The translations under genes were made by a program, and so were the position numbers. The notes beneath the pieces are model-generated. The model did not search any database. It was given only the letters and a program-made list of their open reading frames with translations, and was not told the DNA's origin. Shown here in pieces: positions 16,973 through 43,780 of a stretch of 64,000 nt of DNA; position 1 is the first letter of the stretch; the number at the start of each line of letters is the position of its first letter. This DNA is from Escherichia phage isim. The stretch is from sequence record MN850597.1; one strand, given 5' to 3'.

Positions 16973-16998
16973 TTTTCAGATCTCCTTATACAAAAATG

Positions 16999-17024
16999 CC
17001 CCACCCTTTCGGGCAGGGCTATGT
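16999..17024 (-). terminator. GAAA-tetraloop hairpin (CCCUGCCC-GAAA-GGGUGGGG) followed by a U-run; identical copy at 27975
   Basis: 20-nt sequence identical at the two sites; on the minus strand a UUUUU tract follows, directly after the 17035 stop. Confidence 0.55.
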
Positions 17025-17034: not shown

Positions 17035-18261
17035 TTAGAATGGGATGTCATCATCAAAGGCGTACTGTGCTGGATTCTGATCCATCGGGTCATCTTCCCC
17101 ATCATTTACAGGAGGAGCGTCTACAGTGTTTTGCTGTGGAGCTGCTTCCTGTTTGGCAGCCTGAGGTTCTTGATGGTCAGTTGACCCAGCACCGTTCTTG
17201 ATCCAATCGTACAACGGCTCAGCCAGATTAGTCAAGACATCTTTTGCTTCTGCAGTAATTGCCGCTGCAAAATCATCAACTTTCGTTTTCTTGTCAATAC
17301 GGCGACAAGCGTTCAACACCGCATTACCGACACTGGCACCTACTTCATCTTCAGTTCGGTTGGTGGCTTGAGCATACTCTTTCTTAAGCTCAATAGTGAC
17401 TACGTGTAGTGTTTTAGCCACTCCTAGTGGGTCGTCTACCTTAAACCCGCGATCCAGGATGATTTGCAACGCATTGATGCTATGCCCCGTTTCCACACCG
17501 ATAGGGTCGTAAGAGGATTTACGCTTGCCACCAGAGCCTTGAGTACCGTTCTCTGCCTTAGGAGGATAGGCTTTGAAACCACTGATAATGTTTCCGGTGT
17601 CTTTGTCAACAATGGCTGCAACACGACCACCTACCACCAGGTCTTTAAGCTGCTCATCAGTTACAACCATAGCACCTTCGCCAATCTTGTGGTCATTAAC
17701 AGTAACCACGTTGCCAACAATCTGAGTCACATCACCATAGATGCGTAAAACGTCCTGATTGGCATTCTGCTGAGGTTTCTGCTTCTGGCCTTGTGATTGT
17801 GCACCTTGTTGCTGTTTTTGCTGCTGAGTCGCTGCTGGAGCCTCTCCTGCACCCAGCTTAACCATCTTAGCCAGTGAGCCTTTGTAGTAGGTCTTACCGT
17901 TATGCTCGTTTGCCTTCAAAGGGATATTTACGATCCATCCTGGCGTTACGGTTTCCCACTTGTCATCAATTTTAACAGAGACAGAGTCTTGATGACCCGG
18001 TTTAAGCAGCTTATCGCCCATACTGATCCAAATTTCTTCACCACCTTGAAGTAGGTTATCAGAGGAATCCAGTTCAGAAATCAGTAAAGAGATGGTGTGG
18101 CTGGACTCAATTTTCTTACCTTGCCACACAGTGGTTTTAATACCTGTTGTAGGATCAGCACCTTTGATAGGCTTGATGCTGACGCGTTTAATCATGCCGT
18201 GAGCCAGTAAAACAGTTTCACGCGGATTCATCGGGTTAGCGAATTGTTGAATAACGCTCAT
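17035..18261 (-). CDS. putative ssDNA-binding protein with an E. coli SSB-like C-terminal tip (...AFDDDIPF) and a Gln-rich linker (408 aa)
   Basis: C-terminus DDDIPF is identical to the E. coli SSB tip; sits in the replication module. Confidence 0.5.
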   Translation of the reverse strand: MSVIQQFANPMNPRETVLLAHGMIKRVSIKPIKGADPTTGIKTTVWQGKKIESSHTISLLISELDSSDNLLQGGEEIWISMGDKLLKPGHQDSVSVKIDDKWETVTPGWIVNIPLKANEHNGKTYYKGSLAKMVKLGAGEAPAATQQQKQQQGAQSQGQKQKPQQNANQDVLRIYGDVTQIVGNVVTVNDHKIGEGAMVVTDEQLKDLVVGGRVAAIVDKDTGNIISGFKAYPPKAENGTQGSGGKRKSSYDPIGVETGHSINALQIILDRGFKVDDPLGVAKTLHVVTIELKKEYAQATNRTEDEVGASVGNAVLNACRRIDKKTKVDDFAAAITAEAKDVLTNLAEPLYDWIKNGAGSTDHQEPQAAKQEAAPQQNTVDAPPVNDGEDDPMDQNPAQYAFDDDIPF

Positions 18262-18626
18262 TATTTGTCTCCTTGTTCTTCGTTAGTGTTTGCCGTGTGT
18301 GCAAACCCTGCTTGAATTAATTTGTCCTGAACTTGAGCCAACAGGCCCATTGCAAAACTTGTGGTCCCAGAGAGGGCCATCAACATATCTCGTTGTTGAG
18401 CTACCCAACCTAAGGCATAGTCCAAACGACGATATTTTTCTTCTTCACGCAGAGCCTGAAATAATTGTTCAGCCTCCGGTTGTTGTGTGAGCTCCTGAAG
18501 TCTTCCCATGAAAGAAGAAAGCACTAGCAAAAGAGACACTTGATCTTTACTTAACCCTAAGAAAAATTCTTGAGGTTGTTCTTGCTCGTTCATCGCAACC
18601 GACTCTTGATCGTTCATTTGTTCCAT
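18261..18626 (-). CDS. hypothetical protein (121 aa)
   Basis: ORF; stop/start overlap with the SSB-like gene. Confidence 0.5.
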   Translation of the reverse strand: MEQMNDQESVAMNEQEQPQEFFLGLSKDQVSLLLVLSSFMGRLQELTQQPEAEQLFQALREEEKYRRLDYALGWVAQQRDMLMALSGTTSFAMGLLAQVQDKLIQAGFAHTANTNEEQGDK

Positions 18627-18709
18627 TATGGAATCTCCGATTTTATTTGAACAACATAGAAGGAGACACTATTTTAGCATCCCCTTCTGTAAATTACAAT
18701 AGGTATTTG

Positions 18710-18955
18710 TTAGCCAATCACTTCGAAAGTTCCCCAATTCCCGTCCAGCAGGCAGGTGATCGGATCCCCATCGTCGTCAAAGATTTCAAAGTTTTCAGCA
18801 TCCAGGATGTGGCCCTCGAACACAATACTTTCGTCGCCACCACCAGAGATAACAGCGTATTCCTTACCTTGAGTCAAGTTTTGACACCCTTTGCCACCAA
18901 AACCTACTTCAACACAACGTACTTTCTGTCCTGCGCGAGCAACTACTTCAGTCAT
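18710..18955 (-). CDS. hypothetical protein (81 aa)
   Basis: ORF in series. Confidence 0.45.
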   Translation of the reverse strand: MTEVVARAGQKVRCVEVGFGGKGCQNLTQGKEYAVISGGGDESIVFEGHILDAENFEIFDDDGDPITCLLDGNWGTFEVIG

Positions 18956-18972
18956 CTTAAGGTCTCCTGATA

Positions 18973-19293
18973 TTAATCGTCAAGTTCAAAATAGATTTTA
19001 ACAGCTTCATCAAAGATTGGAATCCCAATGTTGTTGATAAGCTGCCAAACTACCATATCTTTACCTGGATCTGGGAGAATGTCAACCTTTCTCCATGCGC
19101 TGTATATCCAGTTCGGACCACCTTCTGCACTAACTGGCAGATTTTCACCAGCCTCCTGCAGATACTTATACAGCAAAAGATATTCTGGATACTCTAGAAC
19201 ACTGTCCCCTGTAGTATATAGCAGTTCACGGTATACTTTTAAGAACCCTGCTGGGGTAATGTTTTCAGTCTTCATTTGCCGCTTCTCCTGCAT
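18973..19293 (-). CDS. hypothetical protein (106 aa)
   Basis: ORF in series. Confidence 0.5.
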   Translation of the reverse strand: MQEKRQMKTENITPAGFLKVYRELLYTTGDSVLEYPEYLLLYKYLQEAGENLPVSAEGGPNWIYSAWRKVDILPDPGKDMVVWQLINNIGIPIFDEAVKIYFELDD

Positions 19294-19657
19294 TCATCAG
19301 GTCTGCCATAGCGTCACCTACGAAGAGAACAACCACATCGTTGACAGCGTCAGCATCATCTTTATTGACGTTGCTGAATTTAGGACACACCGCAATGATC
19401 ATATAGACACCGTTACCAACCTGAACTGTCCGTGTGGTGCACATCATGGCGGTATTTGTGCCTTCTTTGAAGGCGAAGCCTTGAAGACGCTCCTCTAAAG
19501 TGTTACCGGTAGATTTCAGAAGCGCCAGCTCGTCCAAGGCATAGATGATATCTCCGGAAGTTAGTGTTGCCTTGCCATCAGACACCATAATAACTCCATC
19601 AGCACCGTCAAGCTTAGAGGCTTCAAAGATATCAATATCCCAAATATTTTTCATCAC
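19265..19657 (-). CDS. hypothetical protein (130 aa)
   Basis: ORF in series. Confidence 0.5.
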   Translation of the reverse strand: MMKNIWDIDIFEASKLDGADGVIMVSDGKATLTSGDIIYALDELALLKSTGNTLEERLQGFAFKEGTNTAMMCTTRTVQVGNGVYMIIAVCPKFSNVNKDDADAVNDVVVLFVGDAMADLMNAGEAANED

Positions 19658-19974
19658 GCTTCCTCGTCGTCTAAAGAGTTGAAGATTTCACCGAAGTATT
19701 CTAAGACTTCTAGCTCCCGTGTGGTGCAGAAAACACAGTCACCGTTGTCATCCTCGATAACGGCCTCTTTACCCAGCACATCTACTTCAAGTTTATCGTT
19801 CAACAGGACAGCCCCTGTGTAAACTTTGTCGGCTGTGCAGTCCCGAAAAGCAGAGTCTTTCTCCAGATAGTCTGGCTTAACCTTGGCTTTAATTCGTTGG
19901 TATTGTTTGGTCATTGCTGTGGTCCCCTTTCGTTTTGATAGGGCCATTATATTAGGCCCCATCACTGTTGTCAA
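19654..19974 (-). CDS. hypothetical protein, paralog of 19978..20232 (106 aa)
   Basis: Shared pattern AF(R/K)DCT...Y...DD(N/E)GD(C/S)V(F/W)CT with its neighbour. Confidence 0.5.
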   Translation of the reverse strand: MTTVMGPNIMALSKRKGTTAMTKQYQRIKAKVKPDYLEKDSAFRDCTADKVYTGAVLLNDKLEVDVLGKEAVIEDDNGDCVFCTTRELEVLEYFGEIFNSLDDEEA

Positions 19975-19977
19975 GTA

Positions 19978-20232
19978 TTAATGTTCAGGTTTTACAAAAA
20001 CTACTTCATTAACAGTGCACCATACAGAGTCTCCTTCATCATCTTTAAAGGTAAGGCACTGTGCTGAGTTTTCCAGCTCATCGATCTCTTCTTGTGATAA
20101 AGGGGCCCCTTCTTCCAGGAGGGCTTTTACCAGAGGGTTCTCACAAAACTCTGCTTCATAAATTGCACCGACTGTGCAATCTTTAAAAGCTCGGTCATTT
20201 GCAACGCATTCTGACTTCAAAGTAATTTTCAT
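19978..20232 (-). CDS. hypothetical protein, paralog of 19654..19974 (84 aa)
   Basis: See neighbour. Confidence 0.5.
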   Translation of the reverse strand: MKITLKSECVANDRAFKDCTVGAIYEAEFCENPLVKALLEEGAPLSQEEIDELENSAQCLTFKDDEGDSVWCTVNEVVFVKPEH

Positions 20233-20308
20233 CTTAACAGTCTCCTTAGTTATTTAAAAATCAACACTCTGTTTGTGCGAAGCATCTTATATCTAATCTT
20301 ACTTCTTG

Positions 20309-20707
20309 TCAATGGCTATTTTCAATCAGCCACACAGGGTCTAGGTAAATTTGTTGGCGTGTTGCCCAATGACAAACTTCATTGTACATCTGAATCTCTT
20401 TGTCAGTCAGTTCACGAATAGGCTCATCTATACCCTCATTTTTGTGGTAATCCCAGTCGGCATCGATTTCCCACAACCATGACTTGTTGTCACCACGCTT
20501 ACGCACACAGAAGTCACCGGGACGGCCTGCCAATGCATTTAAGAACTCGTTCTCCGCTCGCTCCTGAAGAATACTAAGGAGCAAAACGTTAGAGCATGAC
20601 CGTAAAATATGCTTCAGCTCACAATCATCAATCTCAACTTCAATACGTTGTTTGACTGTGTGGGTACCTTTTACTAACATCCTACCTCCTCTAAACGAAC
20701 TCTGCAA
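20309..20707 (-). CDS. hypothetical protein (132 aa)
   Basis: ORF in series. Confidence 0.5.
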   Translation of the reverse strand: MQSSFRGGRMLVKGTHTVKQRIEVEIDDCELKHILRSCSNVLLLSILQERAENEFLNALAGRPGDFCVRKRGDNKSWLWEIDADWDYHKNEGIDEPIRELTDKEIQMYNEVCHWATRQQIYLDPVWLIENSH

Positions 20708-20885
20708 GAGTTGTGTTGTTCACTGCACCGCAGTAAATGGAGTATCCCAGCCCATTAGAGTGCAGAAACCACGGCGTGCCGAAATTATCTTTCACGTAGA
20801 CATCACCGTTGTTTGTAAAGGGCCAATATTCTTCCCCAAGGGTAAAATACCTATTCATACCTTCAGCAAGATACTTTACTTTCAT
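20691..20885 (-). CDS. small protein, member of a three-gene paralog set (64 aa)
   Basis: Shares F..G..Y......(I/V)KD..G..W(Y/F) with the next two ORFs. Confidence 0.45.
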   Translation of the reverse strand: MKVKYLAEGMNRYFTLGEEYWPFTNNGDVYVKDNFGTPWFLHSNGLGYSIYCGAVNNTTLAEFV

Positions 20886-21109
20886 AGGTCCTCTTCAACA
20901 ACTACAAACTTGGCAAGCAAAGTGGTTCCGTAGATATGATACTCACCGTTTGCCAGGTGAGAGATATACCAGGCAACCCCTTCCTCATCTTTAATCATTT
21001 TGTTTGCACGGGCTTTATCGTAATAAACCTCGTAGGTCTTTCCTTCTTTAAAGAATGACAGGTCTGTCATCTTTTCTTCTACAAAGGTAGCTTTAACCAA
21101 AGTCGTCAT
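20882..21109 (-). CDS. small protein, paralog family member (75 aa)
   Basis: FKEGKTYEVYY...IKDEEGVAWYI pattern. Confidence 0.5.
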   Translation of the reverse strand: MTTLVKATFVEEKMTDLSFFKEGKTYEVYYDKARANKMIKDEEGVAWYISHLANGEYHIYGTTLLAKFVVVEEDL

Positions 21110-21480
21110 TGATCGGTCTCCTTCTTGTTAAGTCTGAATACTGCAATAATAGTATTCCCAAGGTGCAGTGTCAAGTCATTTCCAAGATACCACAGCATCC
21201 CACGGTCATCTTTAATGAAAGGGTAACAATCTGGTGCCTTCCAGACATTGTACACTTTCCCAACCTGAAAGAAATCAGGCCCTGTTGGTATTTTGGTGCC
21301 AGGCCACACTTGAGATACCTGAACACACTCCACCTGCATAATAACAGGAATGGTCATGGATGTAAATGTTTTTGTTGACTCTACTACCATAAAAGTCTCC
21401 TCTTTGCTCAACAGCACCTCCCTGTGCTGATAGTTTACATTAGTGACAATCACCCCAATTACGACCACACAAGTATTCAC
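21106..21480 (-). CDS. protein with C-terminal paralog-family domain (124 aa)
   Basis: C-terminal FQVGKVYNVWK...IKDDRGMLWYL pattern. Confidence 0.45.
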   Translation of the reverse strand: MNTCVVVIGVIVTNVNYQHREVLLSKEETFMVVESTKTFTSMTIPVIMQVECVQVSQVWPGTKIPTGPDFFQVGKVYNVWKAPDCYPFIKDDRGMLWYLGNDLTLHLGNTIIAVFRLNKKETDQ

Positions 21481-21793
21481 CTGTGATCTGGAACGGGACT
21501 CCCATCATTTTAGAAGCTTGCCAGAAGCAATGCACCACCATTTCACCCACAGGGCTCCAGATAAGTTCAAGCTTTCCGTCATCGTTCAGGATAGGATCGT
21601 ACACCGTGTTTCCGTCTCTGTCAACCACTTCGTTTCCGTTTTCATCCTTGCGTGCCTTTTTGTACTTATGACCGTCAAACACATGAAGTTTGGCCTCCTG
21701 CTCTGCCTTAAATGCTTCCAATTCTTCAATTGTGTCGAAGGTGTACACAGTCTTATACTTAGGCGTGTCAGGGACCTGAAGTTGGTACTCATC
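21440..21793 (-). CDS. DNA polymerase C-terminal exon (begins DEYQLQV = motif C, ends ...GRNWGDCH)
   Basis: C-terminus resembles the T7 gp5 end (...GPNWAICH); the frame is open upstream of the listed TTG; no RBS for independent initiation. Confidence 0.55.
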   Translation of the reverse strand, partial: DEYQLQVPDTPKYKTVYTFDTIEELEAFKAEQEAKLHVFDGHKYKKARKDENGNEVVDRDGNTVYDPILNDDGKLELIWSPVGEMVVHCFWQASKMMGVPFQITGEYLCGRNWGDCH

Positions 21794-22635
21794 CAATAGT
21801 TCAGGTAGGTCGTTAAGCTACCCCGCACCATTACGTGCACAGCCATACGGTTTCCTGTATGGATCGGACTATCTCACTACCTTGTTACCAAGGCACCTCT
21901 CATTTCGACCGCACTTGCTGGCCTACTCTACTCGCTTCTTCACACCAAACTATGTTGGAGCTATGCTTTCGATAGTCTCTGAACGTTACTACCAGGTGTA
22001 GTTTTTAGAGATATGTTTCCACTGTCTTCTTTGCTTTATGGCTCTGACCGTCTCATAAGGATACCCAAGATCCCTAATCTCACATTGTCGTAGACCACTC
22101 TGCAACAGTTCACAAATCTCCATTACCTCATCCTCGGTCAGCACAGCGTTGGCATTATACTCACCGACTGGCCTTACTCTGAGCTCATTATCGTAGGCGT
22201 GTTTGATATTTTCACCGGGGGTAGTCCATTCCAGGTTCCAGTATGCATTGTTGTACTTATTTCCATCCTTATGGTTCACCCATGTGAGCTTTTCAGGATC
22301 AGGGTTCGGTACAAAGCATTCAGCAACCAAGTGGTGGACACCTTTTGTGCACTGCCTTCCATCGATGAGCATGGTTACGCAAAGGTAACCTCTACCATTA
22401 TCAAAACAAAACATTGTTGTATGATCACGTTTCGATAAAGGTATTGTTCCATCATCAAACACGATATACCCGTGATAATCAGCTGATCTAGCCATTTTAA
22501 CTACACCCCTTTAGTCTTCGCTGCGGATTAGCATATTGAGTTTTTACCATGTTTAGGTGTAAAAGTCAACTTAGCCTTCCCGTCAATTAAAGAGGTTTTC
22601 GACGTGCATCACTGCACGAAGCCACAATGTTATTT
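21794..22635 (-). mobile_element. putative group I intron (about 842 nt) interrupting the DNA polymerase gene inside motif C and carrying an HNH endonuclease ORF
   Basis: Exon 1 ends ...IIYYH then stops 2 codons later; exon 2 begins DEYQ; proposed 5' junction follows a U and the 3' junction follows a G. Confidence 0.5.
21989..22495 (-). CDS. HNH homing endonuclease (168 aa)
   Basis: VHHLVAECFVPNP...VNHKDGNKYNN...NLEWTTPGEN matches the HNH homing-endonuclease signature. Confidence 0.8.
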   Translation of the reverse strand: MARSADYHGYIVFDDGTIPLSKRDHTTMFCFDNGRGYLCVTMLIDGRQCTKGVHHLVAECFVPNPDPEKLTWVNHKDGNKYNNAYWNLEWTTPGENIKHAYDNELRVRPVGEYNANAVLTEDEVMEICELLQSGLRQCEIRDLGYPYETVRAIKQRRQWKHISKNYTW

Positions 22636-25059
22636 ATGGTAATAGATAATACGACGAACACCTTCATCGTACCACCCACGCTTCACCATTTGGTGGTGCA
22701 TAAGTATCCCAACTAAGTCACACAGCGATGCACCACCATTCTGTTGGTATGCATTAAGTAAAGAGTGTTTAGATCGGGTCCAGATGGCATGACCATCAAA
22801 AGAGTAGATAAACTTCTTACCCGTTGCTTCCCAGAATTTCTCCAGATCCTCTTTACGCCCCTTAAGACCAGGGTTGGCATCCCAAAGTGCATCGATCACC
22901 CTTTGTCCCAACTCTGGAGAGATGTCCAGCATATCTGCAACTTTATCTTTTTGTGCCCCGTACATAACCCCATACGTGATAGGTTTACCGTCGTTACGAG
23001 ACACCTCTCTGCCTGCTACTTTTGTATATGCCTCAGCATTGTTTTGGTGTGCGTCCCCGTTACTTACAACATCATAATACAAGCCGTTGTCGAACTCAAA
23101 GGCACCCCAAGCCCCGATAAGCTGCTCTAAGTTGGACCCGTCAATACCGATCTCAAAGTATCCTGGAGGAACACCCCACAGACTACGCATCTCTTTACCC
23201 ATAACCACTTTAGGAGATGGTTTAGGCATGTTTGCACAAATACTGTGTTTCTGTCTGGAAGTGTTTGTTAATCCAGAGCTTTTAGCAGGAAGCTTATGGT
23301 CAATCTTCAAACGTGGGTGATTAAGAAGACCAGTATCAACCTTATCCTCCTTAATTGGATCAAGGACCGATCTGCGGTTTCGCAATGATAACCACAAGAC
23401 GATATCTTTAGCCATCTCTCCGTTCAATTTTTCAAGATTCGGACATAGGTGTCCAAACGTATCTTTCAGTTGCGGAGAAGTAATAAGTGCTCTGGCTTTT
23501 CTACGTATTTTCCCGAATACTTCCTTTTTAATCCTTTCGGAGTTAGGAAAGCTTCGGAACTTGTGCACGGTTGTCTGGAACTTAGCATCAGTTTTGTTCC
23601 AGAAGTTGATAATCAGGTCACAATACTCTGACTCTAAAAGCTCGTCCATATATGCATATACTCGTGCATCAACATCTGCATCAGGTAGAGCTTTCTTCTT
23701 GCTGTCTTTAGTTACATCCTTAGTTCTCCACATTGTCGGAAGCCAACCAGCACTGATCAGGTATCGCTTAATATCGTCCTGATTGCTGATTTTCATAGGT
23801 ATCTTGCAGTCAGGCATTCGCTTCTGCTGCAGATCGCTTATTGCCTGATCCATCAGCTCTTTAGGTAAAGGTTGTGGTGTGGAGGTGCCCTTAATATAAC
23901 CTCTCAAGAAATCAGCCATCTTGTCTGGGTCTTTGCAGCCCATCTCTTCACACCATTTTATCCCCATTTTACTGACATCTCCTGTGGAGGTAAATGCTCG
24001 CTTAGGTGGGGCTTTGAACTCTAAAGCGCTCATGTCTACAGGATAGCCAAGCTTATCTTTTAACCATTTCCAACCATTATTGGAGATTGTCCCATCTTGG
24101 TTAAACGGCTTTTCAGGGAACTTGGGCCGCTGAGACATTGACAGCTCTTTTAAAGGTAGTTGTGGTTCAACACGATCAGCTATTTCTTTCATCCACGCAT
24201 CGCAACGGTCACGTAAAGCAATAGCCCCGTCTATGTCGAAATACACACCCTGACGGGCCTGCAGCTCCATCAGGAAGTGCTGCAGCATGCCTCGGCGTAA
24301 TGCGTTCTTCCAGGTGATCTTCTTGAACCCTTTTGGCTTCTCTTTGGCAGGATCGTACATAAAGTTCTGCATGTCAGATTTGCCGTAGAATACACCTTTT
24401 GATTCCGCTACCAGCTCTTTCCAGAGCAGCTCCTGGATGATAACGTCCTCGAATACACGATCCACATACTTCCACAGCGGAAGATCGCGCCAGTCATCAA
24501 TTTGAACTTTCTGGTTACCAAGAGCGTAGCCCCATGCCATAAGGCCGTGAGGACCAACAGGCTGCATTTTCTTAGTAACCGGGTTGAATACAGAGTCCGG
24601 GCAACCTTTTGGTAAAGGGCGATCAGGCCACAAGATTCGGCTCATCGCCAACGTATCGAACAGGTTAACCTGGTGGTCGTTGATAGTCCCCATACATTTA
24701 GGATCACGGAACATATCAAAATGAATACCGGATAATCTCTCCATCAGCATAAAGTCATAACTGTAGCAGTTATGGCAGTTCAAAGCTGTTGGTGACCAGT
24801 CGGAATTTCCTGTAAGCCAACCTTCCAACTCCGAAAAATCTGCTATGCGAACTTCAAAATCTTTATAAAGAGTTTTCTTTGCCAGAATAAAGTTCTTAGC
24901 CTTCTCTATATCCTCCTCGGAGTAGTGTGTGCGGTCATTTAGAGGAAGGAACAGCATAAAACGGTTCTTATTCAGCTCTTTAAACAGGCCGCAATGATAA
25001 TAAAGATCTGGGTCTTCCAGCAAACCGGATGACTCAAAATCGAACGACCACATGCTCAT
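22636..25059 (-). CDS. DNA polymerase, family A (T7 gp5-like), N-terminal exon with 3'-5' exonuclease and polymerase motifs A and B; ORF stop at 22630
   Basis: Exo I FDFESSGLLE...HCG (T7 DIEANALLE...HCG), motif A GIDGSNLEQ, motif B RNDGKPITYGVMYGA, then FDGHAIWTRSKHSLLNAY; the HDE motif is missing from this ORF. Confidence 0.85.
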
Positions 25060-25117
25060 ATACAGTTCTCCTTAAAGGGGAGGCGGTTGTACTACCCCTC
25101 CCACTCTTTGTTAAACA

Positions 25118-27196
25118 TTAAAAAGGTGTTTCATCATCCTCAAAACCAGGAACATGGTCAGAGGACGGATCATCGTACTGGAGGTCTTCCTGCGTGTCAA
25201 CAGGCTTAACAGTAGGAGTTACAACCTTATCAGCCACAACCTTACCCATAGGTGTTTCTACAACTGCATGCTCCTGATCCTCAAACATAGCCTGAGGTCT
25301 CCAAACAACCTCCCCACCTTCTCCATCTGTAAACATTTGCATTTCTTTGTCCCAGTACCAATTACTGGCATCATGGAACTTACCTGTATGTGGGTCCATA
25401 ACCAAAGTGTCTGCAATACCTAAAGTTTTTGCTGGACGGTTTTTAAGACCTACCAGTCGGACACGCCCACGAGAACGATCCACCATTTCTTCGGCCTCGA
25501 CACCTATGACTACCCAACTCAACTGTTCAAGCCCAGCCGATCCTCGCAAATTCTCTTTTCGCACAGGATACCAGAAAGGTAACGGGTTACCATCCTTGTC
25601 CTTAGGAGGCACAATCTCTGTACGTTTGAGGTGAGCGATCACCAAGATAAACACATTGAACTGCTTACAAAACGCAGCCAGCTGGGTCATAGCCATGTCC
25701 AGTTCTTTTCGCTCATCCTTAACATTAAGCCCCGAAATTACCATGGACAGGTGATCCAGCACAATATAACGGCAATGGTACAGGCAAACCATTTGCTTAA
25801 GCTTGGTAATCAACTCGTCCACCGGAATAGACCCGAAATGTTTGAACACTTTGATTTTTCCAGCTTTTGCCCATGATTGGTGAATCTCTGCGTGTTCTTG
25901 ATCAGTTAAAAACTGGCTAGGATCTTCAACAAACTCTTTAACATCAAACCCTAGCTGGTTTGCATACAAGGAGTTAATTGCTTCCTCTGGGTCCTCCTCA
26001 AGATGGATCATGCATAGACGATCATCCTCTTCATAGTCATCGGCCTTCGGGCATGTCGGGTCCATCAAGTATCTTGCAATACAATGTTCCAGTTTTTTAG
26101 CTACAGTTGTTTTACCGCCCCCTGATGGCCCTGTAAGCATTACGAGTGTCCCTTTGTGCAAGCCTTTTAGCATTTTTTGCAGTTTTGGAAACTCTGCGCT
26201 GATATCTACCCCGTTGGAAGTCTTTTTCCGCAAAGATTCGATAGAGAAGTCTTCTAAATCCGACACAGCATCAGGCACATACTTAACAGGATGCCGGAAC
26301 ATGTTTACAATATCTTCCAGCTTTTTAGCCTTTAGCATGTCACGGATATCTTTTACACCGTCAGGATCGTTTACCTCACCGGGGTATTCTACGTGGTAAA
26401 CGTTATCAGCCATCAAAAATGCTGCGATATTGTGCGTTGCCTCAACACCTTTAATGACGTGTTTTTGCTTCTCTACCTCGTTAGCTGCATCGTTATCCAT
26501 TGCCAGCACAACTGTTCCATAGCTACGGATAAACTTCTCATTGTTTGCAAAAGTATCTACTGCGTTTGCACATCCACAGTTAATTCCAACAAAAGGCAGG
26601 CATGGTTTTCCTGCCAGATCGCCACCGTTGATAACTGCATCGATCCCGTCCTGGACCTCTTTAGCCCACTGTTTCACCTTTGCCGGGGCTTTAGCGTTGG
26701 TGAGAATCCCTTTTACTTGTATCTGATATGCAGCCTGCCATGCTGCAATAACATCACCTTCTCCCTCACAAACGTTAATCTGCTTACGGTTGTTGGAAGA
26801 TGCACACAGCTTTTGACCAAACATCTGAGAGTTAGCCTTTACTATGCCAACAACGGAGAAATGGCCTCTTTGCTCTTTAGGAATCGTCCAGTCACGCTTT
26901 TTGAAACCGGACAGATTTCCGTAGCGGTCGTAATATGGGAAATATGTTGCAGTGACTGTCACACCATCTTCTTGGGATAATGCTGATCGCACACCAAAAT
27001 ATTGTGCAGCCATCAGACCGATATTTTGTTGTGGGACAGGGACAATTTTAGTATTTTCTAAAACAGTCTCTACAGTTTCAACTTCTTTTTCATCACGATA
27101 GTCTCGTTTCACACTTCCCCCACTTTTATACTTAGTTGCTTTCGGGTTTGGCTCACCGAAACGGTTGTATGCAGATGCCATAAATTTACTTCCCAT
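25118..27196 (-). CDS. DNA primase/helicase (TOPRIM primase plus DnaB-like helicase, T7 gp4-like) with acidic C-terminal tail ending ...EDDETPF (692 aa)
   Basis: TOPRIM EGEGD and MDNDAAN; Walker A GPSGGGKTT; acidic tail ending in Phe. Confidence 0.8.
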   Translation of the reverse strand: MGSKFMASAYNRFGEPNPKATKYKSGGSVKRDYRDEKEVETVETVLENTKIVPVPQQNIGLMAAQYFGVRSALSQEDGVTVTATYFPYYDRYGNLSGFKKRDWTIPKEQRGHFSVVGIVKANSQMFGQKLCASSNNRKQINVCEGEGDVIAAWQAAYQIQVKGILTNAKAPAKVKQWAKEVQDGIDAVINGGDLAGKPCLPFVGINCGCANAVDTFANNEKFIRSYGTVVLAMDNDAANEVEKQKHVIKGVEATHNIAAFLMADNVYHVEYPGEVNDPDGVKDIRDMLKAKKLEDIVNMFRHPVKYVPDAVSDLEDFSIESLRKKTSNGVDISAEFPKLQKMLKGLHKGTLVMLTGPSGGGKTTVAKKLEHCIARYLMDPTCPKADDYEEDDRLCMIHLEEDPEEAINSLYANQLGFDVKEFVEDPSQFLTDQEHAEIHQSWAKAGKIKVFKHFGSIPVDELITKLKQMVCLYHCRYIVLDHLSMVISGLNVKDERKELDMAMTQLAAFCKQFNVFILVIAHLKRTEIVPPKDKDGNPLPFWYPVRKENLRGSAGLEQLSWVVIGVEAEEMVDRSRGRVRLVGLKNRPAKTLGIADTLVMDPHTGKFHDASNWYWDKEMQMFTDGEGGEVVWRPQAMFEDQEHAVVETPMGKVVADKVVTPTVKPVDTQEDLQYDDPSSDHVPGFEDDETPF

Positions 27197-27950
27197 TAAT
27201 TCTGCTCCTTACTACAGGCTCGTTTGCTAAGAATACGGCTTTTGCCCAGCCACGTGGTGTGAGGCTTCGAATCATCTTCGTTCTTGCACTCTTTCCACCC
27301 AGCTTGGCGTGTTGCATGGAATACCCGCTAACCACGTCAACTATTTGCGGGACAGGTTTTGTGGCCGGGATTATAAATCCATTACCTATCCAGCCGCAAG
27401 TTATTTTTGGATAGGCATCACGTGGAGCTATAAATTCAGGAAACCATGGGTTTACATCATCTTCCGGTAAATACCCGCCATAGTCAGAAGGATGAAAACG
27501 GTAATCAGGTTTGCGCCACAGTGTGGACATAACACCTACAGGATTCTCTACATGCCACGGGCAATCGTAAATCTCTCCCAGCTCTTCCGCAACCCGAGCA
27601 TCCCTTACAGCATTAATTTGGATCATGGGATCCTTAGCCAGCTTTTTCTTAAAATGTGCAGCACCTGATACCGCTAAATGCGTGCACGGAGGAAATGCAA
27701 GAATAAAGTCTGGAGCTGGGTACATGCAAAAAGTTTCCTGAGGGAACCATGGGTCAATCCAATAATCCACATAGTGAATGTTGGGATGATCGGTTATCAC
27801 CTCTGCATAACTGCCGTGATCAGCACCTTCTGCATTAAAGCACAGGCACAGATACCCAGCTTTTGCCCAGTCAATGACTGCACCACCAGATCCGTCAAAT
27901 AGGCTCCACACAACACCTTTGTGGTAGTGTTCTTTGTAGATAAATTTCAA
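27186..27950 (-). CDS. DNA (cytosine-5)-methyltransferase-like protein, short form (about 254 aa from TTG; ORF track starts at 27980)
   Basis: Motif I LFDGSGG, motif IV FPPCTH (PC), motif VI HVENPVG (ENV); RBS AGGAGA 7 nt before TTG at 27950; too short for a full target-recognition domain. Confidence 0.55.
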   Translation of the reverse strand: MKFIYKEHYHKGVVWSLFDGSGGAVIDWAKAGYLCLCFNAEGADHGSYAEVITDHPNIHYVDYWIDPWFPQETFCMYPAPDFILAFPPCTHLAVSGAAHFKKKLAKDPMIQINAVRDARVAEELGEIYDCPWHVENPVGVMSTLWRKPDYRFHPSDYGGYLPEDDVNPWFPEFIAPRDAYPKITCGWIGNGFIIPATKPVPQIVDVVSGYSMQHAKLGGKSARTKMIRSLTPRGWAKAVFLANEPVVRSRINGK

Positions 27951-27974
27951 TTTGCTGTCTCCTAATGCAAAAAG

Positions 27975-28000
27975 CCCCACCCTTTCGGGCAGGGCCTAGT
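27975..28000 (-). terminator. GAAA-tetraloop hairpin plus U-run, second identical copy
   Basis: Same 20-nt sequence as 16999-17018; lies between the 28002 stop and the methyltransferase RBS. Confidence 0.55.
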
Positions 28001-28895: not shown

Positions 28896-29239
28896 CAGAA
28901 ACCTCCCACTTCTTCAGCAAATGCAGCTGCTGTCGTCGCTGCATCCAGATAGGACTCTAGTTCACGGGCTGCACGTTTGTAAATTGAGTGTCGCAAATCG
29001 TTTGGCAGTTGGTGGAAGTCCACCTCTTCACCGTTGTGGTAAACATACACATCGGTAATTTGTCTAAATCCGTAATAGTCAACATCAGAATCACGGCACT
29101 CTGGGTCTGGCAACTGGACAACTGCCTGAGCTTCCACAGTGAACATATCGTCAAGTTCGAAATCGATTTCAAAAGTGTATGGTTTATAACATTTCATCAT
29201 TTGATTGTACTCTTTATTGATCAGACTTATCTTTCGCAA
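28895..29239 (-). CDS. hypothetical protein (114 aa)
   Basis: ORF; start overlaps the methyltransferase stop. Confidence 0.55.
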   Translation of the reverse strand: MRKISLINKEYNQMMKCYKPYTFEIDFELDDMFTVEAQAVVQLPDPECRDSDVDYYGFRQITDVYVYHNGEEVDFHQLPNDLRHSIYKRAARELESYLDAATTAAAFAEEVGGF

Positions 29240-30539
29240 TTAAGGTCGGGGCAAGTTTGTAATAACGGAAGCCACCACCACCTTGCCAGTTTACAGACTT
29301 AGAAATACCACCTTGATCTTCACCATCGATCACTTTTTCCAAGCGCGGAATAATATGGGTATGACAATGATCACCTAGCTCGATTGAGATCCAACGTCTT
29401 TTCATCTTGTGAGCTACAGCAGCAGTAGTTCCCGAACCACCGAATGAATCCAATACCAAATCGCCTTCTCGCGTACACATTTCGAAAATTCGCTTCAAAA
29501 GCGCTTCTGGTTTTTTCCCATTTTTGAAACTAACGCCGCCTTCATTTGCTATTCCATTCCAACTAATGTCTGTCCAAACATCAGTTATTAGTTCCGCAGG
29601 TTGCATATCACCGTCAATTTCCAAAAGCCTGTTGGAGTAAAAGACCATTTGCCTACCATTTACGATATAAAATCCTTCAACATCTTCATTTGGATGTACA
29701 TAAACCTTATCCCTATCTTTCTTTGACTTCTCGATAGTTTCTTTTCTCTTTATTTTAGCACCACCGCCGATTGCAACAGATTGAAATACACGTTCTGCAT
29801 TATCAATTGCGAATTGTGCTAATTCATCATCGAATGTATCAGGCAGTTTTTTCTTGGCCTCTTTTGCATCTTTATAGCCATTGGCCTTTGCAAACGCATC
29901 GGCAATACCGCACCACGTCCAATTTTTATAATGGTCATCCGGGTTTAATAGGTATTTGTTATATCCTGTATCATACCCTTTAGGTATATAGATTTTGTTA
30001 AGCGGTTTCTGGGTGCGATCTTTTGCATATACAAGCAAAAAGTTTGCTGTGGAGAAAACTGTGGCTCCTGTTGCCTTAAATCCCGAAGGGGAATTTGTGG
30101 TCATCGATATGGTATTTAACTGATTTGCACGACCAAAAATCTCGTCCATCAAAACTTTTAAATACGCCATTTCGCAATCATCTAAGTGAACGAATATTAC
30201 CCCATCATCACTTAGAAGATTACGAATTATTTCTAACCTATCCCTCATTAAGCCCAGCCAAATGGAATGCTCAAGGCTATCATCGTAGTGCTCAAAAGCC
30301 CTTCCAGTATTGAATGGTGGGTCTATGTAAACACACTTCACTTTGCCTGCATACTCTTGCTCTAGCGCCTTCAATGCTAATAAGTTATCTCCAAAAATCA
30401 GTTTATTATCAAAAATATCGTTTTCGGTCACTTTCTGGCTGTGGTAAGACTTGCTAGAATCTTCTAACAAAATGTGCGGCTCTAACTTTTTGCGCTCGTT
30501 TTTACCTATCCAGGTTAGTTCTAATTTGGTTTTGCTCAT
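29214..30539 (-). CDS. N6-adenine (or N4-cytosine) DNA methyltransferase, beta-class, type III Mod-like, orphan (441 aa)
   Basis: Motif IV VYIDPPFNTG precedes motif I LVLDSFGGSGTT; no adjacent restriction gene. Confidence 0.8.
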   Translation of the reverse strand: MSKTKLELTWIGKNERKKLEPHILLEDSSKSYHSQKVTENDIFDNKLIFGDNLLALKALEQEYAGKVKCVYIDPPFNTGRAFEHYDDSLEHSIWLGLMRDRLEIIRNLLSDDGVIFVHLDDCEMAYLKVLMDEIFGRANQLNTISMTTNSPSGFKATGATVFSTANFLLVYAKDRTQKPLNKIYIPKGYDTGYNKYLLNPDDHYKNWTWCGIADAFAKANGYKDAKEAKKKLPDTFDDELAQFAIDNAERVFQSVAIGGGAKIKRKETIEKSKKDRDKVYVHPNEDVEGFYIVNGRQMVFYSNRLLEIDGDMQPAELITDVWTDISWNGIANEGGVSFKNGKKPEALLKRIFEMCTREGDLVLDSFGGSGTTAAVAHKMKRRWISIELGDHCHTHIIPRLEKVIDGEDQGGISKSVNWQGGGGFRYYKLAPTLIAKDKSDQ

Positions 30540-39230: not shown

Positions 39231-40126
39231 ACCCTCGCATAAATTAAACTTGTATCAGTATACTTTTTTAATGGGTAAATATCCTGTCCATAGATGCAAT
39301 CATTAAACACCTCATCTACCCAAAGGCTACACTTATATCCCATCATTTCTAAAACACCCATCTCTTCTTCGGTAAACTTATCACCGCTCTTGCAAGATGT
39401 CAATACCTCATTCTGAACTCTTGCTACCTCGAAGCGGTTATTGGCAATATCGCTATTGGCGATCAAATACTCACCTAGAGGGTGTGCGGCATTAAAGATG
39501 CACAGTGGACGGCTGACGTAATAGTCTCCAGGTGTATAAAAATTATTGAGGTCTTTCACTAGAACATTCTTATCAGTCACTTCATTTATAACATCATGCA
39601 TATCGCACATCTTTATATGTTTGAGGATTCCATCCCCCATCACAAAATAAAAACTTGCTGAAACACTTTCGGCATAGATCTTACTAGATCCGTTGTAGTT
39701 GTATTTTACTCGGATGCTAACGGGGGTTTTTCCTGTCGCGTTAGCCATCATCCAAAGAAATGGCAGCTCATACTTCTCCTCTGAGGAAACAAAAGGTGAA
39801 GTAGCCAGAGATCGAAAACCTCCAGAGAAGTTGAAAGTTACAGAACCGCTCCGGCGGTATGATACTGCGTATTCTACTTTTATATCAACGTATCCGTTGG
39901 AGTAAGTATGCCCTCCATTATCAAGGTATGTCCACTTATCAGACCCGGATACCAACCTCCGCTCAATTACCTTCATCACCATAGGAATTAGCGGATTAGT
40001 ACAAACCGATCTTGAAGTAGCTTTATCATCCAAAGCCTCGTAAATTGCAGAAAGGATGTCCCCAGCTGAAAGATTGGTTGTTATGTCCTGTTTCCACCGC
40101 GTACTAAAACTGTTAAGATTTGCCAT
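39227..40126 (-). CDS. hypothetical protein (299 aa), first gene of the minus block at the strand switch
   Basis: ORF with RBS; promoter TTGACT-N17-TATAGT upstream. Confidence 0.6.
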   Translation of the reverse strand: MANLNSFSTRWKQDITTNLSAGDILSAIYEALDDKATSRSVCTNPLIPMVMKVIERRLVSGSDKWTYLDNGGHTYSNGYVDIKVEYAVSYRRSGSVTFNFSGGFRSLATSPFVSSEEKYELPFLWMMANATGKTPVSIRVKYNYNGSSKIYAESVSASFYFVMGDGILKHIKMCDMHDVINEVTDKNVLVKDLNNFYTPGDYYVSRPLCIFNAAHPLGEYLIANSDIANNRFEVARVQNEVLTSCKSGDKFTEEEMGVLEMMGYKCSLWVDEVFNDCIYGQDIYPLKKYTDTSLIYARV

Positions 40127-40166
40127 AAGTAAGTGCTCCTATGTTAGTTTTCTTTCGAATGGGTGC

Positions 40167-40237
40167 ACTATATCGGAGATTTAGAGTAAAGTCAACACGT
40201 TTTTGATGTTGACATCTATTGAAACAATTGATACGAT
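40167..40237. promoter_or_regulatory. Divergent sigma70-like promoter pair at the strand switch (minus: TTGACT-N17-TATAGT at 40167-40195; plus: TTGACA-N17-TACGAT at 40209-40237)
   Basis: Hexamers read directly on both strands between divergently oriented gene blocks. Confidence 0.5.
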
Positions 40238-40268
40238 TTCTTCACTTACAGGGCACGAGAGACAACTC

Positions 40269-41246
40269 ATGAATCTTGAAAAATATTATACACCAGAAGA
40301 GTTAGAGCGCCTGCTCAAAAAATATAGACGCAAACAGAATAATGCACGGAAACGAGATATAGAGTTCAACCTGTCATGGGAAGAATACCTCCTATTTGGT
40401 AAAAAACTTTTAGGAGATGGAGTATGCGACTATACCCTTATACCTTTTGACATGCACACAGATGAAAACGGGCTGGGAAATCCTTTCTACCCATCTTTGG
40501 AGCGTATAGATGATGAAGGTCCTTACGCAATTGACAATTGTTGTGTGGTAGGGTTGAGGTGCAATGCTCTGAAAGACTGTTTGGTAGATAAAAAGACTGC
40601 AATCCTGATTAAAGACAAAACTGATCGAAAAATTGTCCAGCAGATGATGCTCCACCTGAGCGAAGAGCGTATGGAGAAATTGAAAGGTGATTATACTTTT
40701 GAAGATTTCATCTTGCAATACGGGACAGAAGAAGATAAACTAGCACTATTTGACGAAGAGGAAGAAGATATGTCACCAATGCAGGACTTTAAAAATTTCA
40801 TGGCTGATCGTGCAGCCAACAAACACATTTCAGACATCGTGAACGAGACTGTGACAGAAGAAGTTGAAGAACAGAACTCTGAAGAGGAAAAAGAGCCTCA
40901 GGAGGTCGAAGAGGGGATTGCAGAAGAGGTTCCTGCACTGCCTGATGATGTTGAGATTGCTAAGGCTTACACTTTCTATTGTCAAACGTTCTACGATGCA
41001 GGTATGAAAGTTGATCTGTCGTTCAGCCAATTTAAGAGTTCGTATATTCGCAAATGCTGTGCTTTAACTGGTGAACGTCTCGGAGCTGGACTTAAACCAC
41101 TGTTGGTGACCGACTGGAATAAAGGTTTCACTAAAGGAAACTTTATGGTAGTATCTCCAATTATGGAGAAAGCTATGACAGATCTTATGAAGACCACCCG
41201 CATGACAATGACCGAGTTGGCAGGTATTTTCAAACACGTTAAATAA
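40269..41246 (+). CDS. hypothetical protein with acidic central region (about 325 aa; start moved to MNLEKYY because the plus promoter overlaps the ORF-track start at 40203)
   Basis: ORF; predicted promoter lies inside the first 35 nt of the longer ORF. Confidence 0.55.
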   Translation: MNLEKYYTPEELERLLKKYRRKQNNARKRDIEFNLSWEEYLLFGKKLLGDGVCDYTLIPFDMHTDENGLGNPFYPSLERIDDEGPYAIDNCCVVGLRCNALKDCLVDKKTAILIKDKTDRKIVQQMMLHLSEERMEKLKGDYTFEDFILQYGTEEDKLALFDEEEEDMSPMQDFKNFMADRAANKHISDIVNETVTEEVEEQNSEEEKEPQEVEEGIAEEVPALPDDVEIAKAYTFYCQTFYDAGMKVDLSFSQFKSSYIRKCCALTGERLGAGLKPLLVTDWNKGFTKGNFMVVSPIMEKAMTDLMKTTRMTMTELAGIFKHVK

Positions 41247-41258
41247 TGACAGGGGCCA

Positions 41259-42740: not shown

Positions 42741-42755
42741 GAGAGGAGGTTATTT

Positions 42756-43019
42756 ATGGCAACAGAGTTAAAATTTGCATCAAACCGTAAAACTAAGAAG
42801 TATCTGTCCTCAGTAGCTCCAGGCGCTGTGGTGATGTTTGTTGATGAACTTGGGGATGTGAATACAGCACTTGTTGTAAAATCACATCCTGCAAACATAT
42901 ATGTTGGGGTATTTGACCTGTTCAGAAAGGTGTTTGTAGAACTACCTCACAGTTTGGTTGTTACAGAAATGGATGCCTGCATAGAAATTCTTGGCGAAGT
43001 TATGGTGGAGGAACAATAA
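42756..43019 (+). CDS. tandem-paralog family member 1 (87 aa)
   Basis: MATELKFASNRKTKK...GAVV...LPHSLVVTEMDACIEILGE aligns with the next ORF; overlapping ATGA junctions. Confidence 0.6.
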   Translation: MATELKFASNRKTKKYLSSVAPGAVVMFVDELGDVNTALVVKSHPANIYVGVFDLFRKVFVELPHSLVVTEMDACIEILGEVMVEEQ

Positions 43020-43282
43020 TGGCTACTAGCATTGTATTCAATTCTAAGGTGAAGAACAAAAAGCGTGCAGACAGTTTTCCGTGTGGGACCGTGGTAAGTT
43101 GCGACGGAGACGGTATTCAAAACATAGTTATGATTGTCAAAACAGGAGAACATTGTGTGTGGGGGTTCGATTTAGAAAATAATGAGTTGTACGATCTGCC
43201 GCCAAACATGAAAGTTACAGAGCTTGACACCAAAATTACCATCCTTGGAGAGACAAGCTATTCAAAAGAAGGAGGAGAATAA
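43019..43282 (+). CDS. tandem-paralog family member 2 (87 aa)
   Basis: MATSIVFNSKVKNKK...GTVV...LPPNMKVTELDTKITILGE. Confidence 0.6.
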   Translation: MATSIVFNSKVKNKKRADSFPCGTVVSCDGDGIQNIVMIVKTGEHCVWGFDLENNELYDLPPNMKVTELDTKITILGETSYSKEGGE

Positions 43283-43545: not shown

Positions 43546-43546
43546 T

Positions 43547-43780
43547 ATGGCAAAAATTCGAAAATTATCTAGCAATCAGGTTGTGAAAGACTTCGAATCT
43601 GGAGAGATTCTTTATGTTCGTGATGCAGATGACGAAGGTGAAGATCTCGTTATGTTGGTGGGGCACGCTGAGGACGGATGCATCCAAGCTGTTTTTCTTG
43701 AAACAGCTATGGTGCACTGGATAGAGCTGGACTTGAAAGCACGAAAACCTAAAGCAGAAATCCTGATTTACGAAGATTAA
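43547..43780 (+). CDS. tandem-paralog family member 4, divergent (77 aa)
   Basis: FESGEILYV ... acidic patch; similar size and position. Confidence 0.5.
   Translation: MAKIRKLSSNQVVKDFESGEILYVRDADDEGEDLVMLVGHAEDGCIQAVFLETAMVHWIELDLKARKPKAEILIYED

What the first reader, a model, noticed from the sequence alone, without database searches (positions are those of the whole stretch)
17035..27196. Replisome proteins ending in acidic tails with a terminal Phe, including an exact E. coli SSB tip mimic
The 408-aa protein ends ...AFDDDIPF, identical to the C-terminal tip of E. coli SSB that recruits many host replication and repair proteins, but its body is longer than a canonical SSB and has a Gln-rich linker. 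The primase-helicase ends ...FEDDETPF. Acidic tails ending in Phe on both helicase and SSB are the arrangement known for the T7 replisome, which fits the T7-like polymerase here. The phage protein could either act as the replisome SSB or use the tip to compete for host SSB partners.
Basis: partly seen in the sequence, partly recalled or inferred. Interest (0 to 1): 0.55.

Follow-up and report, generated by a model that had tools for sequence, protein, structure and literature searches.

The report
Phage SSB-like protein with host SSB tip

Summary
The window is a Vequintavirus (rV5-like) E. coli phage. ORF 17035..18261(-) ends AFDDDIPF and the primase-helicase 25118..27196(-) ends FEDDETPF; they are the only 2 of 236 ORFs with an acidic tail ending in Phe.

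The tip is close to invariant across the family: 112 of 133 full-length representatives end P-F/W. 112 of 120 helicase homologues end acidic-x-P-F. T7 gp5 and gp4 are the only solved sequence relatives of the polymerase and helicase. A complete relative genome has no other SSB.

Prior art: bioRxiv 10.64898/2026.04.29.721553 describes the orthologue Bas52_0087 (404/408 identical) as SSB-like with an E. coli-type C-tip and as the DRT10 trigger. The conserved helicase tail, the family survey and the helical-domain assignment are new here. Novelty and interest are moderate.

The parts
17035..18261 (-). Gene for the 408-aa SSB-like protein (phrog_4477; orthologue of Bas52_0087 / QXV84166.1)
   Evidence: ORF. 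No Pfam match. phrog_4477, unknown function, E 1e-172. 404/408 identical to bas52_0087. Annotated 'hypothetical protein' in the Vequintavirus records listed.
17848..18261 (-). Residues 1-138: basic OB-fold domain, the predicted ssDNA-binding module
17752..17847 (-). Residues 139-170: disordered Gln-rich linker (13 Q in 32 residues)
   Evidence: pLDDT below 50; composition; variable in length across the family.
17557..17751 (-). Residues 171-235: small beta-barrel, present only in the long (about 400 aa) form of the family
   Evidence: AF2 strands 171-232, pLDDT about 81-86. Absent from short-form members P0052-P0056 and from most of the 248 representatives. The preprint calls it a second OB fold.
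17188..17511 (-). Residues 251-358: family-specific four-helix bundle. It holds the invariant G255, G259, H260, N263, G312 and L316, and the DRT10-escape positions D252 and Y351.
17038..17187 (-). Residues 359-408: disordered acidic tail (net charge -11). Its last 8 residues AFDDDIPF (17038..17061) are the E. coli SSB-type tip.
   Evidence: pLDDT below 50; charge; tip conservation. tblastn with E. coli SSB finds only this segment in the window and in the complete FFH2 genome.
16991..17019 (-). Intrinsic-terminator-like hairpin plus T-run directly after the SSB-like gene
   Evidence: GCCCTGCCCGAAAGGGTGGGGC followed by ATTTTTG. The protein therefore ends at the Phe, with no read-through extension in this phage.
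18261..18626 (-). Conserved 121-aa gene (phrog_7310, unknown function). Its end (18261) coincides with the first base of the SSB-like gene.
   Evidence: ORF; phrog_7310. An orthologue sits immediately upstream of the SSB-like gene in all Vequintavirinae loci L002-L014.
25118..27196 (-). T7 gp4-like primase-helicase. Its last 8 residues FEDDETPF are encoded at 25121..25144.
   Evidence: DnaB_C and AAA_25 domains; phrog_239 DNA primase/helicase, E 7e-160; T7 gp4 is the best PDB relative. 112 of 120 homologues end acidic-x-PF. The last 70 residues hold 18 D/E against 4 K/R.
22630..25059 (-). N-terminal 809-aa part of a T7 gp5-like family A DNA polymerase, the likely docking partner of the tails. 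K748/K749 (22813..22818) align with T7 front-basic-patch residues R590/R591.
   Evidence: T7 gp5 is the only PDB sequence relative, E 1e-14. Alignment. The basic pair is kept in related polymerases.
21440..21796 (-). C-terminal 118-aa part of the same polymerase, separated from the N-terminal part by an HNH-containing insertion (21989..22495)
   Evidence: phrog_8888 DNA polymerase; HNH_3. In Bas51 the polymerase is annotated as one joined CDS with the homing endonuclease inside it.

Best explanation
The 408-aa protein is the phage's own single-stranded-DNA-binding protein. It belongs to a non-canonical family (phrog_4477) built from a basic OB fold, a family-specific four-helix bundle that probably mediates self-association, and a long disordered acidic tail. 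The long form found here has an extra beta-barrel. The tail ends in the universal bacterial SSB docking tip, D-F-D-D-D-I-P-F.

Proposed mechanism (inferred):
- The OB domain coats ssDNA exposed at the phage replication fork.
- The free tip works as in E. coli SSB and T7 gp2.5. It docks into basic or hydrophobic pockets on partner proteins. Those partners would include the phage's T7-type polymerase and, because the tip equals the host's, host SSB-interacting proteins such as ExoI/SbcB.
- The T7 gp4-like primase-helicase carries its own conserved acidic ...D-D-E-T-P-F tail. By analogy with T7 gp4, this tail tethers the polymerase. The two tails would then compete or alternate for the same sites.

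Shown here by computation: the tails and their conservation, the predicted OB fold, T7 kinship of the polymerase and helicase, and the absence of any other SSB.

Shown by others genetically: the 99%-identical orthologue is required to trigger DRT10, which ExoI dosage counteracts.

Still inferred: ssDNA binding, oligomerisation, and every tail-partner contact.
For: - Tails are present and unique in the window.
- The tip is nearly invariant across a family of 248 representatives. P407 and F408 are invariant; 112 of 133 full-length members end P[FW].
- Charge polarity is typical of an SSB: OB domain pI 9.1, tail net charge -11.
- The complete FFH2 genome (224 features) has no annotated SSB, and tblastn with E. 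coli SSB hits only this tail.
- The gene lies in the replication module, on the same strand as the helicase and polymerase.
- The polymerase and helicase are T7 gp5/gp4 relatives.
- The helicase tail is conserved in 112 of 120 homologues; some read DFDDDTPF, one residue from the SSB tip.
- Every contig carrying both genes has both tails.
- T7 front-basic-patch residues R590/R591 align with a conserved K-K/R pair.
- T7 precedent for the function of both tails: PMC12339929 and bioRxiv 10.64898/2026.05.20.726333.
- The orthologue Bas52_0087 is a DRT10 trigger linked to ExoI (orthology).
Against: - There is no experimental ssDNA-binding, oligomerisation or tail-binding data for any family member. 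The preprint has none either.
- There is no sequence-level link to any SSB family outside the tail.
- The T7 front basic patch is only half conserved: the loop with K587/K589 is missing. The K-K pair is also present in phi92-like phages whose helicases lack the acidic tail, so it does not discriminate.
- In more distant lineages the helicase ends ...EGSY while the SSB-like tip is retained. The two tails are therefore not strictly coupled.
- Expressing Bas52_0087 alone does not activate DRT10, so its effect on host ssDNA metabolism is indirect or depends on infection.
Confidence: 0.7

Rival explanations
1. Decoy or hijacker. The protein's main job is not to coat replication-fork ssDNA. Instead it presents many copies of the host SSB tip to sequester or redirect host SSB-interacting proteins (ExoI, RecQ, PriA, Pol III chi, RecO and others). 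This would shut down host replication restart or nucleases, or bring them to phage DNA. The phage would rely on host SSB for ssDNA coating.
For: The last 7 residues equal those of host SSB, and the tip follows the bacterial consensus across the whole family. DRT10 activation by the orthologue is antagonised by ExoI dosage, and the authors propose competition with SbcB. Escape mutations map to the helical bundle, not to the OB domain.
Against: A confident, basic OB domain is conserved in essentially all family members, which a pure decoy would not need. The gene lies in the replication module of a phage that encodes its own polymerase, primase-helicase and ligase but no other SSB. Canonical phage and plasmid SSBs also carry host-like tips while acting as true SSBs (for example HK620 SSB, PMC5928155, listed). 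The two roles are not mutually exclusive.
Confidence: 0.15
2. Recombination mediator or annealing factor. The OB-plus-helical-domain layout resembles RecO. The protein would load onto or anneal ssDNA during recombination-dependent replication, and would use the tail to hand over to other factors.
Against: The RecO matches cover only the OB part (about 82-94 residues, rmsd 5-7.5 A). The helical domain alone finds no RecO-like match. RecO binds the SSB tip rather than carrying it.
Confidence: 0.07
3. Transcription-linked SSB. Like phage N4 SSB, which activates host RNA polymerase (from my own knowledge), the helical bundle would contact the transcription machinery.
Against: The scores are at the noise level for four-helix bundles, and the hit list is heterogeneous (arsenate reductase, terpene synthases, cyclins). 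No sequence relationship to any sigma or N4 protein was seen.
Confidence: 0.03

Closest known systems
Bas52_0087 (QXV84166.1) of Escherichia phage RudolfGeigy, the DRT10 trigger in bioRxiv 10.64898/2026.04.29.721553
   Same: It is the same gene: 404/408 residues identical, 97.3% nucleotide identity, same position between the same neighbours. The preprint already reports the Phold/AlphaFold2 'SSB-like' architecture and the FDDDIPF tip resembling the E. coli SSB C-tip, and proposes interference with host SSB partners such as SbcB.
   Different: [quoted passage not shown] Here those residues fall in a separate, confidently modelled four-helix bundle that is the most conserved part of the family. 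A search of the preprint's text found no discussion of the helicase tail, the T7-type replisome or family-wide tip conservation, and no ssDNA-binding data.
E. coli SSB (bacterial SSB family, PF00436)
   Same: An OB fold followed by a low-complexity disordered region and the acidic tip; the last 7 residues are identical (FDDDIPF). [quoted passage not shown]
   Different: There is no sequence similarity outside the tail. The protein is 408 aa rather than 178 aa. It has an extra beta-barrel and a four-helix bundle. The Gln-rich linker lies between the OB fold and the barrel, not directly before the tip. The oligomeric state is unknown.
Bacteriophage T7 gp2.5 (SSB) and gp4 (primase-helicase) acidic tails binding gp5 polymerase
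   Same: The arrangement matches: a T7 gp5-like polymerase, a gp4-like primase-helicase and an OB-fold SSB candidate, with both the helicase and the SSB ending in an acidic tail with a C-terminal Phe.
   Different: The SSB-like protein is not a gp2.5/DUF2815 family member by sequence. The tails here end in a strict x-P-F motif of the bacterial SSB type rather than the T7 D-F type (T7 sequences from my own knowledge). Only half of the T7 front basic patch is conserved. No thioredoxin-binding-domain analysis was done.
Canonical phage- and plasmid-encoded SSBs with host-type tips (for example phage HK620 SSB, PMC5928155)
   Same: A mobile-element SSB that keeps the host's tip and can therefore talk to host or cognate recombination and replication proteins.
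   Different: Those are ordinary PF00436 SSBs. This one is a separate family, without Pfam coverage, that has the same tip on a different body.

Membership tests
Bacterial SSB family (PF00436) | Sequence-detectable SSB OB domain | tested here: not met
   No Pfam hit at E<=0.01 for the window protein, nor at E<=1 for 10 relatives. No PDB sequence hit. tblastn with E. coli SSB matches only the tail.
Bacterial SSB family (PF00436) | Disordered linker ending in the acidic tip D-D-D-[IL]-P-F with a free C-terminal Phe | tested here: met
   Ends AFDDDIPF, then a stop codon and a terminator. The tail is disordered. The tip is conserved family-wide.
Bacterial SSB family (PF00436) | Homotetramer (or dimer of double-OB chains) wrapping ssDNA | not testable with these tools
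   Only monomer prediction is available. The oligomeric state is unknown.
OB-fold ssDNA-binding proteins (structural class) | Five-stranded OB barrel resembling known ssDNA binders | tested here: met
OB-fold ssDNA-binding proteins (structural class) | Demonstrated preferential binding to ssDNA | not testable with these tools
   No experiment is available. The preprint text contains no 'ssDNA binding' or 'EMSA'.
T7 gp2.5 / DUF2815 SSB family | Sequence or profile match to gp2.5-like proteins | tested here: not met
T7 gp2.5 / DUF2815 SSB family | Acidic C-terminal tail with an essential terminal Phe | tested here: met
   Sequence feature present and invariant. Essentiality was not tested.
phrog_4477 (unknown function) | Full-length profile match | tested here: met
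   E 1.1e-172 over residues 1-408. All tested relatives also match.
T7 gp4-like primase-helicase | DnaB-type helicase domain plus primase region, related to gp4 | tested here: met
   PF03796 and PF13481. phrog_239 DNA primase/helicase over residues 18-679. T7 gp4 chains are the top PDB hits, E 4e-16.
T7 gp4-like primase-helicase | Acidic C-terminal tail ending in Phe that binds the polymerase | tested here: inconclusive
   The tail is present and conserved in 112 of 120 homologues. Binding to the polymerase was not testable.
T7 gp5-like DNA polymerase | Family A polymerase most closely related to T7 gp5 | tested here: met
   The only PDB sequence relatives are T7 gp5 chains, E 1e-14. The PF00476 match is weak, 27.9 bits, below the 34.3-bit gathering score.
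T7 gp5-like DNA polymerase | Front basic patch (K587, K589, R590, R591) that receives the acidic tails | tested here: inconclusive
   R590/R591 align to conserved K748/K749, but the loop carrying K587/K589 is absent.

The most novel reading that the evidence does not exclude
phrog_4477 is a previously unrecognised, widespread class of phage SSB: an OB fold plus a dedicated four-helix oligomerisation domain. It has converged on, or captured, the universal bacterial SSB tip. Together with a matching x-P-F tail on the T7-type helicase, it would form a two-tail hub that couples the phage replisome to the host SSB interactome. This coupling would be what defence systems such as DRT10 sense. The tail-coding DNA (...PF-stop) would additionally serve as an insertion site for HNH homing-endonuclease cassettes, which add a conserved 15-residue cap (APIGLQY...) to either protein.
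Probability: 0.35. Interest if true: 0.6.

Novelty: new variant of a known kind. Interest (0 to 1): 0.45.

Why it matters
- rV5-like, phi92-like and related large myoviruses are common E. coli, Klebsiella and Salmonella phages used in therapy cocktails. In nearly all the records listed here their SSB slot is effectively unannotated ('hypothetical protein'). Assigning phrog_4477 as the SSB fills a hole in their replication module.
- The protein is a genetically defined trigger of an anti-phage reverse-transcriptase system (DRT10). A domain map would tell experimenters which part to mutate: the OB fold, the helical bundle holding both escape mutations, or the host-identical tip.
- The conserved x-P-F tail on the helicase extends the T7 'acidic tail with terminal Phe' rule to a distant, much larger phage group. 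It also suggests that one tip chemistry may serve both phage and host partners.
- None of this overturns current understanding. It is a new body carrying a known device.

Tried and rejected
- Sequence-based identification of the 408-aa protein failed: Pfam, PDB phmmer, and Pfam on 10 relatives at E<=1.
- PHROG SSB families match only through the last 35-85 residues of some relatives, the disordered tail region. This is probably why a few GenBank records call the short form 'single-stranded DNA-binding protein'. I do not count those names as evidence.
- I tested whether the odd post-PF extension co-varies between helicase and SSB-like protein within a genome, which would have argued for a shared partner. 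Contig L026 was too short. Pairing by contig then showed that the extension occurs independently on either gene, so that argument was dropped.
- The T7 front basic patch was checked. It is only half conserved and is also present where the helicase tail is absent, so it is not decisive.
- The retron Eco2 paper (PMC12916289) mentions phage SSB and Vequintavirinae but says nothing about this protein.
- A possible relationship to N4 SSB, recalled from memory, was not supported by any hit and was not pursued.
- Not run: multimer modelling of tail-partner complexes (not available), and a database search with the extension peptide (judged outside the finding and too costly).
Full report
**What the window is.** The 10-kb region is 96-98% identical to more than 100 Vequintavirus (rV5-like) E. 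coli myovirus genomes, such as WalterGehring/Bas51, APECc02, FFH2 and rV5. All genes of the finding lie on the minus strand within the replication module.

**Checking the observation.**
- ORF 17035..18261(-) encodes 408 aa ending ...QYAFDDDIPF. ORF 25118..27196(-) encodes 692 aa ending ...PGFEDDETPF.
- I enumerated all 236 ORFs of at least 60 aa in the window. These are the only two that end in PF, and the only two that end in Phe after an acidic stretch.
- The SSB-like gene stops right after the Phe codon and is followed by a strong hairpin plus T-run. The Phe carboxylate is therefore the true C-terminus.
- The linker at residues 139-170 holds 13 Gln in 32 residues.

**What the 408-aa protein is.**
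- Sequence methods say nothing. There is no Pfam domain and no PDB sequence relative. It falls in phrog_4477, 'unknown function'. The Vequintavirus records listed call it 'hypothetical protein'.
- A first homology search gave 56 relatives down to 30% identity.
- In their alignment only 11 columns are invariant, and two of these are P407 and F408. The consensus tail reads DFDDDIPF.
- A profile search of 1.8 billion representatives found 248 family members. Most are a shorter form of about 275 aa.
- Of the 133 listed representatives of at least 230 aa, 112 end P-F/W and 105 end [IVLMT]-P-[FW].

**Predicted structure.** AlphaFold2 on the alignment gives:
- a confident all-beta domain, residues 1-138;
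- a disordered Gln-rich linker;
- a small beta-barrel, residues 171-232, missing from the short form;
- a four-helix bundle, residues 253-355;
- a disordered tail of about 50 residues.

The OB domain is basic (pI 9.1), and the last 50 residues carry a net charge of -11.

**Is there another SSB?** The complete FFH2 genome has 224 annotated features, and none is an SSB. The phage encodes its own polymerase, primase-helicase, ligase and nucleases, so the SSB slot is otherwise empty.

**The helicase and polymerase.**
- The 692-aa protein has DnaB_C and AAA_25 domains and matches phrog_239, 'DNA primase/helicase'. T7 gp4 is its best solved relative (E 4e-16).
- T7 gp5 chains are the only solved sequence relatives of the polymerase (E 1e-14).
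- Among 120 helicase homologues down to 42% identity, 112 end in PF, all with at least 2 acidic residues in the last 8. Examples are DFDNDTPF, DLDSDSPF, EEDDEPF and even DFDDDTPF.
- Pairing IMG/VR contigs that hold both genes shows both tails in every case.
- In more distant phi92-like lineages the much more diverged helicase ends ...EGSY, while the SSB-like tip stays DFDDDIPF. The coupling is therefore lineage-wide but not absolute.
- In T7, the acidic Phe-terminated tails of gp4 and gp2.5 both bind the polymerase's basic patches, including the front patch K587/K589/R590/R591 (PMC12339929; bioRxiv 10.64898/2026.05.20.726333).
- In the HMMER alignment, R590/R591 pair with K748/K749 of this polymerase, while the short loop bearing K587/K589 is absent. 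The basic pair is conserved in related polymerases. This is compatible with the model but not discriminating.

**Prior art.** A literature search found bioRxiv 10.64898/2026.04.29.721553 (30 April 2026).
- Escape mutants of BASEL phage Bas52 that evade the DRT10 (UG17) reverse-transcriptase defence carry D252V or Y351C in Bas52_0087 (QXV84166.1).
[quoted passage not shown] - They propose that the protein interferes with host factors such as ExoI/SbcB, whose dosage counteracts DRT10.
- I verified that bas52_0087 in phage RudolfGeigy (MZ501102) is the orthologue of the window gene. The proteins are 404/408 identical and both carry D252 and Y351.
- Both escape positions lie in the four-helix bundle of my model, and D252 is conserved in 28 of 29 aligned sequences.
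- The preprint text contains no ssDNA-binding assay and no pull-down of the phage protein. Its single mention of 'helicase' was not among the passages I read, and none of those passages discusses the helicase tail.

**Interpretation.** The most likely reading (about 0.7) is that this is the phage's replicative SSB, from a structurally distinct family. Its host-identical tip lets it talk both to the phage's T7-type polymerase and helicase and to host SSB-interacting proteins. The helicase's own x-P-F tail would play the gp4-like polymerase-tethering role.

A pure 'decoy' role (about 0.15) is less likely because the basic OB domain is conserved throughout the family. The two roles are not exclusive, and the DRT10/ExoI genetics fit either. 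RecO-like mediator and N4-SSB-like transcription roles rest only on weak fold hits.

**Novelty.**
- The SSB-like nature of this exact protein, and its tip, are already public in a preprint.
- Host-type tips on mobile-element SSBs, and acidic Phe tails in T7, are textbook.
- New here, as far as my searches show:
  - the deep conservation of an SSB-type x-P-F tail on the helicase lineage;
  - the family-wide survey showing the tip as the family's hallmark;
  - the short OB-plus-helical-bundle core architecture, with the escape mutations located in the bundle;
  - the absence of any other SSB in the genome.
- I rate it a new variant of a known kind, of moderate interest.

**Side observation.** Some SSB-like proteins and some helicases carry the same 15-16-residue extension after the PF (APIGLQY[GA]xxxI[YH]x[LI]).
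- In near-identical helicase alleles, homology breaks exactly after the Phe codon. The extended allele carries the extension, a hairpin and an HNH endonuclease gene.
- In L006 a 203-aa ORF overlaps the end of the extension on the SSB-like gene. I suspect it is a homing endonuclease, because its C-terminus resembles the 192-aa ORF that Bas51 annotates as one. It was not scanned against any domain library.
- The extension's codons differ synonymously between loci, so the peptide itself appears to be under selection.
- Three loci have the extension without an adjacent endonuclease.
- The window itself has no extension.

Noticed in passing
L006 11189..11242; L011, L013, L017 (SSB-like genes); L026 12011..12064; L032, L034, L035 (helicase genes): A conserved 15-16-residue extension (APIGLQY[GA]xxxI[YH]x[LI]) follows the terminal PF on some SSB-like proteins and on some primase-helicases, independently within a genome. 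In near-identical helicase alleles, homology breaks exactly after the Phe codon, and the extended allele carries the extension, a hairpin and an HNH gene. This suggests a homing-endonuclease cassette that inserts at the ...PF-stop junction and caps the tip. Codons differ synonymously between loci, so the peptide appears to be selected. Three loci have the extension without an adjacent endonuclease. The window itself has no extension.
   Followed up: partly
window 21440..25059 (-): The T7-like DNA polymerase gene is split into an 809-aa N-terminal ORF (22630..25059) and a 118-aa C-terminal ORF (21440..21796). An insertion carrying an HNH endonuclease ORF (21989..22495) separates them. Bas51 annotates this as one joined CDS, so it is presumably an intron with a homing endonuclease. 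Some relatives (L002, L012) have an uninterrupted or differently interrupted gene.
   Followed up: partly
L018 8866..9549 and L020 8959..9552: In phi92-like phages, a nucleotidyltransferase (phrog_10174) encoded directly upstream of the SSB-like gene also ends in an SSB-type tip (DTDDDIPW or LEEDDIPW). A third replication-module protein can therefore carry this tail.
   Followed up: partly
window 18261..18626 (-): A 121-aa protein of unknown function (phrog_7310, acidic C-terminus) is encoded immediately upstream. Its end coincides with the first base of the SSB-like gene. The pairing is conserved in all Vequintavirinae loci examined (L002-L014), so it may be a functional partner.
   Followed up: partly
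helicase homologues P0209-P0211, P0250-P0298: Many helicase homologues are about 975-1025 aa instead of about 666-692 aa, yet have the same N- and C-termini, including the PF tail. This suggests a large internal insertion (perhaps an intein) in the helicase gene of many relatives.
   Followed up: no
GenBank records MG0656xx: About 16-21 records named 'Campylobacter phage' with host Campylobacter jejuni are 96-98% identical to E. coli rV5-like phages across this region. They are unannotated and are probably mislabelled or contaminant genomes.
   Followed up: no
window 40001..46000: GC skew is negative across almost the whole window but turns positive between about 40 and 46 kb. This probably marks a block of genes transcribed from the plus strand.
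   Followed up: no
window 27186..27980 (-): The gene just upstream of the primase-helicase, overlapping its start, has no Pfam hit here. Relatives annotate it as a Dcm-like C5 cytosine methyltransferase. An N6-adenine methyltransferase-like gene lies at 29214..30539.
   Followed up: no
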